Source: Haliotis cracherodii (taxonomy: Eukaryota). Taken from it: a DNA stretch of 64,000 bases. Position numbers and translations under genes: made by a program. The notes under the pieces were generated by a model. It was not told where the DNA came from, did not search any database, and was given only the letters and a program-made list of their open reading frames with translations. The stretch lies in contig NW_027266271.1 in assembly GCF_022045235.1 (NCBI RefSeq), positions 23,002,001 through 23,066,000 of the forward strand, given 5' to 3'. This document shows, in pieces, positions 37,001-40,000 of this stretch; positions within the stretch are counted from its first letter, which is position 1; the number at the start of each line of letters is the position of its first letter.

Positions 37001-40000
37001 CTGAATATAAGGTATACATGCATAAACACACTTAGACCAGACAAACCAGAATGAAGTACTAATTCAGCAATATTAGTTTGTTTGTTTGTTGTTTAACGCC
37101 GCACTCAGCAATATTCCAGCTATATGAAGACGGTCTGTAAATAATCGAGTCTGATCCAGACAATCCAGTGATTGATATCATGAGCATCGATCCAGGCAAT
37201 TGGGATCGATGACATGCATCAACCAAGTCAGCGAGCCTGACCACCCGATCCCGTTAGTTGCCTTTTACGACAAGCATAGTCGTCTTTTACGACAAGCATA
37301 GGTTGCTGAAGACCTATACTACCCCGGAATCTTCACGGGTCCAGCAATATTAGGGTATAATGGGACAATCTGCTGGCTCTTGACTCAAGCATATATCCAG
37401 TTAGGCCAACCCTGTCCATGAGTTACCATTTGGTGTCTTAGAAAACCATGACATTAGATCCGTAACAATGCTTATGCTGTGCAAACAGAAAACCTGAATT
37501 TAGTTTACTTTTGCCCTAATTTATCGAACTAAAATCTGTTTACACAATAACTAGGGCTGGCTAAAAAGATTAATGATCGGAATTATCGTTCATAGGAAGA
37601 AATATTAAAGATTATCATTATGAAATTGTTGTCATCGATAATAACTTACATAAACTATTGTAATGAAAGAAAGTTCACATTTACTGAAACAGACTTGTTA
37701 TTGTCAATCATGTCAACTGTCAAAGACGGTAAGCAACTGTTATATTTCAAATGTCCATATAGTAATCCATGCATAAATGTGTCACTGCTCACGAGTGGTA
37801 TGAAATGTGTTGATTTCTTTCGGTACTTTCTAACATATTTGCTTAAAGTTACGTTTCCAATATTTATTGATAAATGATCGATATTTAGTAAGCAATTATT
37901 GATCCGTATTATCTATATTGATAGCCAGCCCTAACAATAACTGCTTCTAAGTCTCAAGCAACATCTCCCAGTCTTACCTTGATGGAGCAACTGTTTGAGT
38001 TATCTCCCCCTGTTTGCTAGGCTGGGCACCAGGGGGCACCCCTTTATCAGCAGTAGTATCTGGAGAGATAATTTCAGCTGTAATGAAAGAAAATCAAAGC
38101 ACCCTTCACCATCTTGACTTACCCAAACACCGATCACTTACAATAGCAAACAAACATACTGAACAAGGTATCAAAACAACACTACATCACTACAGCATAG
38201 GCCTATACTGTATTCACCGAAATAAGTGCCCTGGGTACTTAGAAAATAATTGACTAAGTGGAGGTCCTTACCAAAAACACACATGAGTTAAAATTGTTTT
38301 GAGCGATTTAGCAGTTATGAACGAAGTTACTTCTAACATCGATCTAACTAAATATCCCCAATTGACAAGAAAACAGGAACTTACAGGTTACTTACAGATT
38401 GGCCTAACAGGTGGTCAGAGGGGGCTTACTGGATCTGGGTACTTAACAGGGGAAATACAGTATATATATATATATGTATATACCCCAGAAAATATTGCTA
38501 CTGCAATAAAGTAGATTAGAAAATAGCTAAGACCTTGTCTGCTCTTGGGATTGAAAATGTGGCAGCTTTAGAAATTGGCACTAGTCCTGTAGTCCTTGCC
38601 AAACTGGCCAACAGCTAAGGTATCATAAGGACTGTATCATATGGACTAGTAGAAATGTGCCATTTTCAAAAGTTTTGCTATATGTTATCATTGTAAGGAC
38701 TAGTGGTGTAAAAGTTAGTTTCTACCCCTGTGTGGTACTATGTCTAAAAATATATGTAACATGCACTGATTATACAAACACATTTGTCAAACAAAGTAAT
38801 TTAATATCATGAATATTCTACCATGACTGACTCTTGGAAATACTGTAATCTGAAGTTTCACATTTCAACATGTTCATTCACAATGTATCACAAGCAATCT
38901 TGACTACTATACTATCACAACTACTTTACCCTAACAAATATCATAACAAAATAATTAACCTTGTGGACCAGATTCCAGATCCTTACATTAACTTGTGAAA
39001 GAGGTACCCAAAGTGTTTAAACAAGGATTGTTAAATTTAGATGTATGCTTCAGATGTCTTCACATAATATTCATACTTAATTCAAGTATATTATTTAATA
39101 ATAACGTGTTTGGAGCTGCAAAGCAACTACCCATGTATATTGTAAAGTCATTTCCAAATTATTTTGTTTTGACAAGTCATCAACATTTCTGTTCAAAGGG
39201 AGATAAGTGTACCTGCAGGCGGGATGCCCAGATCTCGGAGCATCTTGTCAGTTTCTGTCCTGAGATCTGTTGGGGGCTTGGCCTTAGTATCTTCACTCTG
39301 AAAATACAGACACTGGTGTCACTTCTGGTCACAGCTCTAAACAGAAAACTGGTTGCCTTCACAACATTAAATGACAGCTTAAAGCGTACTCTCCATGATA
39401 CTTTTGCAATTTACTCCAGGCTTAACTTGTTTAATATGTTCTACTTTCAAAGATTATTCTTATATACTGTATTTAGTGTCCAAAATTTGCTTATTACCAT
39501 CACTGTTCATCTATATCAATCATCAGGGCTCAAAACCCAAGTTGTCCTGCAGGGCAAGTAGATATCATTTTGTACTCTTCTTGCAATAATTTCACTTGGC
39601 CTTTTACATTTGATAAAATTTTATGTTCTCAGTAAAAATTACCATATTCTGTAAGTAACCTTTGAGTTGAAAATACTTAAGACAGCCAGTACAACATAAT
39701 TCAGTCACTGTCATCTACGTTCATCTCTGCCCCTTTGCTGAACTAAGGCCTCTTGCACCATTCGTTTTCTTTTTTTCAGTCATACTGTTTTTGAAAAAGA
39801 TAACTTTTTTTCAGTCTGTTTGATGTCATGTCAAATCATGTTTTTTCTCGCCAACCCCAGCATCCAAACAATTAAAAACTTATATATAAGCCATTTGCCT
39901 CACTAAATCATTCACTTTCGTGTTGACATTTGAGTCGCAAGTAACGAGTCGATTACAACAAAAATAATGACTTCCCTTGTGTCAAGGTTTGCAGAGCGAA

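What the first reader, a model, noticed from the sequence alone, without database searches (positions are those of the whole stretch)
37077..37341. Abundant SINE-like family D lacks a Pol III head and starts with a predicted H-type pseudoknot plus a copy-number-variable 22-nt hairpin
Seen: TSD-bounded copies begin GACCCG-TGAAGAT-YCCGGGGT-AGAATA-GGTCTTCA. CCCG/CGGG (stem 1) interleaves with TGAAGAT/GTCTTCA (stem 2) across an A-rich linker. Next comes TGCTT-GTCG-TAAGAGG-CGAC-TA, present 1x (~35210), 2x (most copies) or 5x (51707-51816). No tRNA A/B box is visible, yet full-length copies share a precise 5' end. Inference: the 5' end may be set by RNA structure (self-cleavage or an exonuclease block) or by an internal promoter. 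I recall the GTCGTAAGAGGCGACTAA motif from RTE-clade 5' UTRs, where HDV-like ribozymes are known, but the fold does not map cleanly onto HDV, twister, pistol or hammerhead.
Basis: partly seen in the sequence, partly recalled or inferred. Interest (0 to 1): 0.7.

Follow-up and report, generated by a model that had tools for sequence, protein, structure and literature searches.

The report
SINE head knot shared with viruses
The front end of this common jumping element, likely a family already described in abalone, is predicted to fold into a conserved knotted RNA that also sits just behind the last gene of several unrelated viruses, and it likely sets the element's 5' end by blocking RNA-chewing enzymes rather than acting only as the DNA promoter it was presumed to be.

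Summary
In detail: 37077-37341 (minus strand) is a full-length SINE with a 12-bp target-site duplication, no A/B box and a sharp 5' end. It is very likely the published 'LINE-promoter' SINE of Haliotis (PMC4758252), whose ~70-nt head was proposed as a promoter. The head behaves as a structured RNA. Loci found with the hairpin alone carry the same H-type pseudoknot with different stem sequences: 89% of cells paired, 8 of 10 pairs compensatory, 0 of 500 shuffles as high. They include a LINE 5' end and the 3' UTRs of six RNA-virus contigs, two with tandem copies. Two of three later blind hits also passed. I add a third helix after the pseudoknot; the extra 22-nt units could fit into its loop. No Rfam family or ribozyme core matches. 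Best mechanism, untested (0.4): an Xrn1/2-resistant RNA that trims read-through transcripts to a fixed 5' end. Rivals are a new ribozyme and a translation element. This scan reported the same motif earlier on a LINE in another genome (e1-8075267); ten paper searches found no structural description.

The parts
37342..37353 (.). Target-site duplication, 5' side of the element (12 bp)
   Evidence: identical to 37065-37076
37336..37341 (-). 5' end: G1-A2 and 5' strand of stem S1 (CCCG, 37339-37336)
   Evidence: 405 and 384 contigs of two runs leave the element behind 37341 with unrelated flanks
37335..37335 (-). Single-nucleotide loop L1 (U)
   Evidence: U in 10 of 11 rows of A1 and 10 of 10 rows of A5; it is part of the strict descriptor, so partly by construction
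37328..37334 (-). 5' strand of stem S2 (7 nt)
   Evidence: all 7 pairs show compensatory change
37323..37326 (-). 3' strand of stem S1 (CGGG)
   Evidence: 1 of 3 counted pairs compensatory
37315..37322 (-). A-rich loop L3 (AGAAUA in the family, AGUAUA in this copy)
   Evidence: AGAAT[AT] upstream in 12 of 13 hairpin-only loci that have upstream sequence
37308..37314 (-). 3' strand of stem S2 (GGUCUUC)
37295..37307 (-). Predicted helix P3 (AGCA/UGCU, 4 bp, variable loop) abutting S2; its 3' strand could instead be the second UGCU at 37273-37276
   Evidence: 33 of 40 cells paired in 10 families, 0 of 20000 shuffles; 4 of 4 pairs in 3 of 3 blind hits; not significant on the MAFFT alignment A4
37279..37300 (-). 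First 22-nt unit (P3 3' strand + U + hairpin P4), usually degenerate in the family
37254..37278 (-). Second 22-nt unit with hairpin P4 (37257-37271) followed by UAA; the unit closest to the cross-phylum motif
37136..37253 (-). SINE body of unknown origin
   Evidence: shared by window copies; no Rfam match above chance
37092..37135 (-). Tail shared with tRNA-headed SINEs of the window (presumed LINE recognition signal)
37077..37092 (-). Terminal (CAAA)n repeat
37065..37076 (.). Target-site duplication, 3' side
43263..43524 (-). Second full-length copy, inserted into the hairpin unit of another copy (43182-43629)
   Evidence: 14-16 bp duplication; passes the strict pseudoknot test
51709..51818 (-). 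Array of five degenerate 22-nt units in an old copy
62017..62125 (+). Second array of about five degenerate units

Best explanation
This SINE begins with a ~70-nt module, likely borrowed from a LINE 5' end, that is predicted to fold into an H-type pseudoknot, a short third helix and a nearly invariant hairpin, and that likely acts as an exoribonuclease-resistant RNA which fixes the element's 5' end. Shown: the element, its boundaries, the absence of Pol III boxes, covariation of the stems across unrelated elements, and the same module at a LINE 5' end and in sense orientation 3' of the last ORF of RNA-virus contigs. Inferred: copies are transcribed inside host Pol II transcripts or introns; after decapping or debranching, Xrn1/Xrn2 would degrade 5'->3' and stall at the base of stem S1, leaving a unit RNA that starts 1-2 nt before S1; the LINE enzyme would then copy it from the shared tail. 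In viruses the same stall would leave a short 3' non-coding RNA. Extra 22-nt units would be tolerated because they can be looped out inside helix P3, which keeps one intact hairpin-UAA in register.
For: Structure: A1 89.1% of 110 cells paired, 8 of 10 pairs compensatory, 0 of 500 shuffles on cells paired and covariation score, slid controls 39-51%. Strict pseudoknot in 6 of 14 loci found by hairpin-only patterns, including 4 of 4 distinct virus contigs, against 0 of 118 loose-match controls. 2 of 3 blind hits pass (19 and 0 of 5000 shuffles) and 3 of 3 have P3. S2 has 10 G-U cells against 1 A-C, so the sense strand is the folded one. Position: 101, 10, 6 and 75 nt after the last long ORF in four virus contigs, 23 and about 125 nt in two more, tandem non-identical copies in 2 of 6. 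Known xrRNAs sit at the start of 3' UTRs, often in tandem (PMC8374639, PMC11702639); the ST9a stop site is at the base of the first helix; the coremin xrRNA is a small pseudoknot that needs a downstream hairpin (PMC10321173). The module starts at the element's 5' end here and, by the paper's account, in scallop SINEs and three LINE families.
Against: No assay and no mapped RNA 5' end. Ordinary H-type frameshift pseudoknots did not stall Xrn1, even with an added hairpin (PMC10321173), and a pseudoknot is 'necessary but not sufficient'. No ring topology was modelled; my one candidate closing contact (L3 with the 3' CUAA) keeps a third pair in only 6 of 13 loci. The hairpin sequence is far more conserved than the downstream hairpin of coremin, which suggests catalysis or protein binding instead. 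6 of 12 anchored loci fail the strict pseudoknot test. P3 is not significant on the automatic alignment (29 and 120 of 500). The two P3 registers in a two-unit copy are equal in energy (-10.6 and -10.4 kcal/mol) and the unconstrained fold forms neither. One copy lies between two genes of a 212-kb virus contig, where its role is unclear.
Confidence: 0.4

Rival explanations
1. The module is a self-cleaving ribozyme of an undescribed class that cuts 1-3 nt 5' of stem S1 and releases the element RNA from read-through transcripts, as HDV-like ribozymes do for R2, RTE and Ingi elements.
For: Six LINE clades are reported to have 5' ribozymes (PMC5786205). A near-invariant core (AGAAUA, the hairpin, UAA) inside covarying stems is typical of catalytic RNA (own knowledge). 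The pseudoknot is broken where the module is internal in a longer repeat (L001-L004), which the same paper predicts for ribozymes. L007 holds 74-bp tandem heads. Linear RNA viruses do carry ribozymes in UTRs (PMC13725137).
Against: No Rfam match and none of six recalled core patterns. No conserved nucleotides 5' of S1. In viruses the cut would separate the coding region from the 3' end, and all contigs are assembled through the site (weak). The viral ribozymes in the passages read are mainly in 5' UTRs.
Confidence: 0.2
2. The module binds a conserved host translation factor or the ribosome: a cap-independent translation enhancer in viral 3' UTRs, an initiation element in LINE 5' UTRs, and for the SINE a way to reach ribosomes that make the LINE protein.
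For: Position just after the last stop codon fits 3' translation enhancers, some of which have an invariant hairpin (recalled, no call). In L005 the first AUG of the endonuclease ORF follows the motif's UAA by 1 nt. Near-invariant loop (UAAGAGG, UAAAAGG, UAUGAGG, UAAGAAG) suits a protein site.
Against: Does not explain why the module starts at the first nucleotides of the element in several families. Start codons lie much further away in Nimb-17_LMi and I-3_DR. SINEs are not translated.
Confidence: 0.2
3. The head is an internal Pol II promoter at the DNA level, as proposed in PMC4758252, and the RNA fold is incidental.
For: Position at the 5' end of LINEs and SINEs and replacement of a tRNA head in oyster SINEs; a start at a purine; the 77-nt L1Tc head has promoter as well as ribozyme activity, so a second, promoter role is not excluded.
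Against: Compensatory changes with G-U wobbles and presence in RNA-virus 3' UTRs cannot come from selection on a DNA promoter.
Confidence: 0.07
4. The module is a mobile RNA passenger like s2m, exchanged by template switching between retroelements and viruses, with some other or dispensable function (for example 3'-end stability in viruses).
For: s2m is sequence-conserved, lies near viral 3' ends, occurs back to back and is shared with insect genomes (PMC8515862).
Against: Three helices keep pairing while their sequences are fully exchanged, which implies long purifying selection; the fixed position at element 5' ends is unexplained.
Confidence: 0.13

Closest known systems
LP ('LINE promoter') SINEs Hdi_LP / Hmi_LP of Haliotis, and the shared head of Nimb-17_LMi, I-3_DR, RTE-9_CPB and scallop MESC SINEs (PMC4758252; section 10, passages, supplement 3 whole and parts 1 and 3 of supplement 4 read)
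   Same: No tRNA head, ~70-nt LINE-type head, TSDs, tandem-repeat end, length (255 bp published; about 250 bp plus repeat here), tail shared with tRNA-headed SINEs. The scallop heads printed in the supplement show the same layout and hairpin (read by eye). A MESC-type SINE ending in (CACCT)n, as described for Haliotis, sits in the window.
   Different: The paper proposes a promoter and gives no RNA structure, no viral occurrence and no repeated 22-nt unit in the text read. The Hdi_LP consensus is in a figure I could not see, and the hexamer AATATA it mentions reads AATATT here.
Coremin xrRNA (xrRNA-C; PMC10321173, passages and first part of Discussion read)
   Same: Small pseudoknot with a one-nucleotide L1 that matters, followed by a required hairpin; viral 3' UTRs.
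   Different: No sequence likeness; S2 here is 7 canonical pairs; the downstream hairpin is conserved in sequence here but only in structure in coremin; an extra helix P3; Xrn1 resistance untested here.
Class 1-3 xrRNAs of flaviviruses and plant viruses (PMC8374639, PMC11702639; first parts and passages read)
   Same: Start of 3' UTR, tandem copies, pseudoknot, 5' boundary at the base of the first helix.
   Different: No three-way junction and no apical-loop pseudoknot; no Rfam match; ring not shown; occurs in cellular retroelements.
HDV-like and twister ribozymes at 5' ends of R2, RTE and Ingi elements (PMC5786205 passages; details recalled)
   Same: A structured RNA coinciding with the 5' end of a non-LTR element.
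   Different: Order of helices and core nucleotides do not fit; no Rfam match.
s2m stem-loop II motif (PMC8515862, passages read)
   Same: Highly conserved RNA module shared by unrelated virus 3' ends and invertebrate genomes, sometimes back to back.
   Different: Unrelated sequence and fold; s2m was not linked to retroelement 5' ends in the passages read.

Membership tests
LP-SINE (Hdi_LP / Hmi_LP) | LINE-type ~70-nt head in place of a tRNA head | tested here: met
   same head upstream of an endonuclease ORF in L005; same layout as scallop Nimb-17-homologous head (by eye)
LP-SINE (Hdi_LP / Hmi_LP) | TSDs and 3' tandem repeat | tested here: met
   12-bp TSD, (CAAA)n
LP-SINE (Hdi_LP / Hmi_LP) | About 255 bp, Haliotis host | tested here: inconclusive
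   265 bp with repeat against 255 bp; host inferred from a MESC SINE with (CACCT)n end, not shown
LP-SINE (Hdi_LP / Hmi_LP) | Sequence identity to the published consensus | not testable with these tools
   consensus is in Fig. 3A, which is not held; not found in the supplements searched (file 1 not searched)
tRNA-derived (Pol III) SINE | A and B boxes, tRNA-like head | tested here: not met
   no match inside the element (recalled patterns), no Rfam tRNA there, no shared sequence beyond 37341 in four runs
xrRNA (functional class) | Blocks Xrn1 in vitro at a defined site | not testable with these tools
   needs an assay
xrRNA (functional class) | Pseudoknot | tested here: met
xrRNA (functional class) | Ring of 15-16 nt around the 5' end | not testable with these tools
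   no RNA 3D tool; one candidate contact not supported
xrRNA (functional class) | Sense orientation at the start of a viral 3' UTR, tandem copies | tested here: met
   6 RNA-virus-type contigs, 6 to about 125 nt after the last long ORF, tandem in 2
xrRNA classes 1-3 and coremin | Class-specific sequence or secondary structure | tested here: not met
   no Rfam match; layout differs from the descriptions read
HDV-like ribozyme | Nested double pseudoknot with P1-P1.1-P2-P3-P4 and the L3 motif | tested here: not met
   Rfam; recalled L3 pattern absent from two heads plus 40 nt flank
Hammerhead, twister, pistol, hairpin ribozymes | Conserved catalytic core nucleotides | tested here: not met
   Rfam; recalled core patterns absent
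Any self-cleaving ribozyme | Site-specific cleavage in vitro | not testable with these tools
   needs an assay

The most novel reading that the evidence does not exclude
A new class of structured RNA, exchanged between RNA viruses, LINEs and SINEs across phyla, is the first cellular exoribonuclease-resistant RNA: it lets promoterless retroelements carve a unit-length RNA out of host transcripts by stalling Xrn1/Xrn2, a third way to make a retroelement 5' end beside internal promoters and ribozymes. If it cleaves instead, it is a new ribozyme class.
Probability: 0.45. Interest if true: 0.9.

Novelty: new variant of a known kind. Interest (0 to 1): 0.72.

Why it matters
The 2016 description left open why unrelated LINE clades and SINEs share only their first ~70 nt. 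The covariation and the viral copies show that the shared unit is an RNA fold, and they reduce the question to three cheap assays on a 70-nt RNA. A 2021 review (PMC8374639) treats xrRNAs in cellular RNA as not yet found; a positive Xrn1 assay would supply one in a very abundant animal repeat, and a positive cleavage assay would supply a new ribozyme class. It would also mean that some SINEs need no promoter of their own.

Tried and rejected
No whole genome is held, so no genome-wide copy alignment was made; public runs stood in for it. No RNA holder is listed on record; this says nothing on expression. Two small-RNA runs laid 3 and 83 reads and show no 5' end. Depth falls gradually towards the 5' end in contig runs, but contig breaks cause that, so it was not read as raggedness. 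Covariation within the window family: not found, copies decay (2 of 9 pass). An alternative pairing of the G-run with ACCC after S2 was dropped because L007 and the virus copies lack it. A second pseudoknot between L3 and the 3' CUAA: third pair in 6 of 13 loci, rejected. ViennaRNA cannot fold pseudoknots; z-scores for four heads were -3.2, -1.4, -0.5 and -0.4. Loose viral patterns gave mostly chance hits in DNA phages: 120 loci, used as control; 1 new, no fold; 6 new, no fold by eye; 120 matches, 3 with 6 of 7 S2 pairs, 0 with the hairpin; 7 of 64 parts scanned; 2 new, no fold by eye. Genome scan found nothing; one search found 5, of which L139 looks like chance and the other four look like animal repeats inside bacterial bins (inference). 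No match in the phage collection. The long ORF of L013 has polymerase-like motifs by eye but no Pfam or PDB hit. The sigma-70 scan is not relevant to an animal genome. Rows dropped before counts: L002, L004, L011 as duplicates; L001, L006, L136 as relatives in the P3 joint test; A5 leaves out L138, L140 and window 3980, so its 97% is a selected figure.
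Full report
Observation. The stretch 37077-37341 is one full-length copy of an abundant repeat on the minus strand. It starts GACCCG at 37341, ends in (CAAA)n at 37077 and lies between two copies of a 12-bp target site, 37065-37076 and 37342-37353. BLAST gives 18 pieces in the window, grouped into 15 stretches. 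The hairpin 15-mer has 13 matches against 0.02 expected. The 22-nt unit occurs once at 35212, twice in most copies, five times at 51709-51818 and about five times at 62017-62125. Target-site duplications were found for 4 of 14 copies tested. No A or B box lies in the element, while four other SINE copies in the window have both and share this element's tail (box patterns recalled). In two contig runs, 405 and 384 contigs leave the element directly behind 37341 into unrelated sequence (agreement 0.35-0.36), and 360 and 356 more that diverge at 37328 still read on to the same first base. The table was cut to its best-supported rows, so this shows a dominant 5' end and no shared upstream head, not a full histogram.

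Identity of the element. PMC4758252 (section 10 whole, passages, supplement 3 whole, parts 1 and 3 of supplement 4) describes 'LP' SINEs with a ~70-nt head shared with the 5' ends of Nimb-17_LMi, I-3_DR and RTE-9_CPB, among them 255-bp families in Haliotis, and proposes a promoter, untested. The scallop heads in its supplement show, by eye, the same layout: a C-run, U, a 7-nt strand, GGG, an A-rich loop, the complementary 7 nt and the hairpin. A MESC-type SINE with a (CACCT)n end, as described for Haliotis, is inserted into one copy of this family at 48556-48908. So the host is probably an abalone and the family is probably Hdi_LP/Hmi_LP or a close relative. I could not align to the published consensus, which is in a figure.

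The head is an RNA fold. Patterns holding only the hairpin found 7 metagenome, 5 viral and 5 genome loci. After dropping 3 duplicates, 14 were tested for features the patterns did not contain. 12 of the 13 with upstream sequence have the AGAAT[AT] anchor. 6 of 14 pass a strict pseudoknot descriptor, each reached by at most 3 of 2000 shuffles, against 0 of 118 loose matches that lack the full hairpin. On alignment A1 (11 rows, failures L138 and L140 included) 89.1% of 110 cells pair, 8 of 10 pairs change on both sides, 0 of 500 shuffles reach the paired share or the covariation score, and slid controls give 39-51%. The rows are unrelated in stem sequence, which limits the relatedness problem of that shuffle. 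A later scan with the loop left free returned 8 stretches, 3 of them new. Two pass the pseudoknot test (19 and 0 of 5000 shuffles); the third has a bulged S2 and a second, divergent copy upstream. With the two passing hits and without three weaker rows, A5 gives 97% paired (a selected set). S2 holds 10 G-U cells and 1 A-C cell, which points to the sense strand.

A third helix and the repeated unit. Directly after S2 a 4-bp helix (AGCA/UGCU here) closes a variable loop, then one U and the hairpin follow. Anchored at both ends, 33 of 40 cells pair in 10 families, with 0 of 20000 shuffles as high within sequences or among families, and all three blind hits have 4 of 4 pairs. On the automatic alignment A4, where four rows are out of register, the count is not significant (29 and 120 of 500). 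The repeated 22-mer is the 3' strand of this helix plus U plus the hairpin. In six two-unit copies the last unit is the closer one to the shared motif in four and ties in two, and only the last unit is followed by UAA or a variant. In the runs, 67% (X15) and 83% (X1) of depth carry the stem-breaking change in the first unit, while 92-97% keep the canonical pair at 37259 in the second (reads can be misplaced between units). Closing P3 on the last UGCU costs nothing relative to the first (-10.6 against -10.4 kcal/mol), though the free fold forms neither. I infer that extra units are absorbed in the P3 loop, which would make the copy-number variation neutral. The loop variant UAAAAGG, about half of the family, also occurs in two virus contigs.

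Where else it lies. In L005 it precedes an endonuclease ORF of LINE type, whose first AUG follows 1 nt after the motif. In L001-L004 it lies inside a longer shared repeat and the pseudoknot is broken. In L007 it forms 74-bp tandem units. Six distinct RNA-virus-type contigs carry it in sense orientation 3' of the last long ORF: tetravirus-type capsid (L014, also L011 from a second dataset), RdRP_3 with nodavirus-type capsid (L015), RdRP_3 (L016), S-domain capsid with an unclassified long ORF (L013), RdRP_4 (L278) and S-domain capsid (L280). Distances from the stop codon are 10, 6, 75, 101, 23 and about 125 nt; L013 and L280 have two non-identical copies. One more copy lies between two same-strand ORFs of a 212-kb viral contig.

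Mechanism. A DNA promoter cannot account for RNA-type covariation or for RNA-virus 3' UTRs, though a second promoter role is not excluded. The function must suit both a retroelement's first nucleotides and the start of a viral 3' UTR. An exoribonuclease block fits both: known xrRNAs lie at the start of 3' UTRs, often in tandem (PMC8374639, part 1 of 5 and passages; PMC11702639, part 1 of 6 and passages), the ST9a stop site is at the base of the first helix, and coremin is a small pseudoknot needing a downstream hairpin (PMC10321173, passages and Discussion part 1). Against it, that last paper shows that ordinary H-type pseudoknots do not stall Xrn1, I could not show a ring, and the near-invariant hairpin suits a catalytic or binding site. 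I give the block 0.4, a new ribozyme 0.2 (precedent in PMC5786205, passages; PMC13725137, abstract and passages), a translation element 0.2, an s2m-like passenger 0.13 (PMC8515862, passages) and a promoter alone 0.07. Everything after 'the head folds' is inference.

Comparison and novelty. Rfam gives no match at gathering level in the window apart from one tRNA-like SINE head, none at the motif in 9 loci up to E 5 and none on the head up to E 10. Six recalled ribozyme core patterns are absent from two heads. The SINE family is very likely known. The fold and its viral occurrence were not found in ten searches of the open library; subscription journals, Repbase, Dfam and bioRxiv supplements were not searchable. 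My reading was written down before I saw it, and the agreement is not independent evidence. From the few lines shown I cannot tell whether helix P3, the account of the repeated unit or the three blind hits are in that report.

Verdict. Real feature; known SINE kind with an undescribed, well-supported RNA module shared with viruses; function untested but decidable by simple assays. Interest 0.72.

Noticed in passing
window 37123-37151 (+ strand): In small-RNA run X22, 52 reads begin at 37123; allowing for adapter letters the insert is about 29 nt, starts with U and is antisense to the SINE, like a piRNA. One start site in one run of a same-label species; could be copies of one molecule.
   Followed up: partly
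window 48556-48908 (+): A MESC-type tRNA SINE with (CA)n inside and a (CACCT)n end is inserted, with a 10-bp duplication, into a copy of this family.
   Followed up: partly
window 43182-43629: One copy is inserted in reverse into the second hairpin unit of another copy, with a 14-16 bp duplication.
   Followed up: partly
window 26150-26480 (-), 46000-46300 (-), 51080-51420 (-), 56290-56620 (+): Two tRNA-headed SINE families share this element's ~35-nt tail but end in (ACTC)n; the one near 51300-51385 has an unusually long spacer between A and B boxes.
   Followed up: partly
window 37065-37076 and 37103-37114: The target site of this copy resembles 10-11 nt of the element's own tail (AATATTGCTG); chance or microhomology, not tested.
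   Followed up: no
L007 761-1020 and 309-420: Heads alone form 74-bp tandem units inside another tandem repeat, without SINE body.
   Followed up: partly
L277 1481-1546: A complete module lies between two same-strand ORFs of a 212-kb viral contig, near a gene with HhH and BRCT domains.
   Followed up: partly
L136, L137, L138, L140: Animal-type repeats carrying the module sit in contigs filed under bacterial symbiont or metagenome bins, probably host contamination.
   Followed up: no
PMC4758252 supplement 4, Pan_3 consensus: The snail SINE Pan_3, listed with an undetermined 5' end and not as an LP-SINE in the table read, begins with this module.
   Followed up: partly
window 12683-13768 (-), 1625-3094 (+), 6789-7807 (-): An intronless 361-aa GPCR-like ORF, a 489-aa ORF and a GC-rich tandem repeat with open frames; not examined further.
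   Followed up: no
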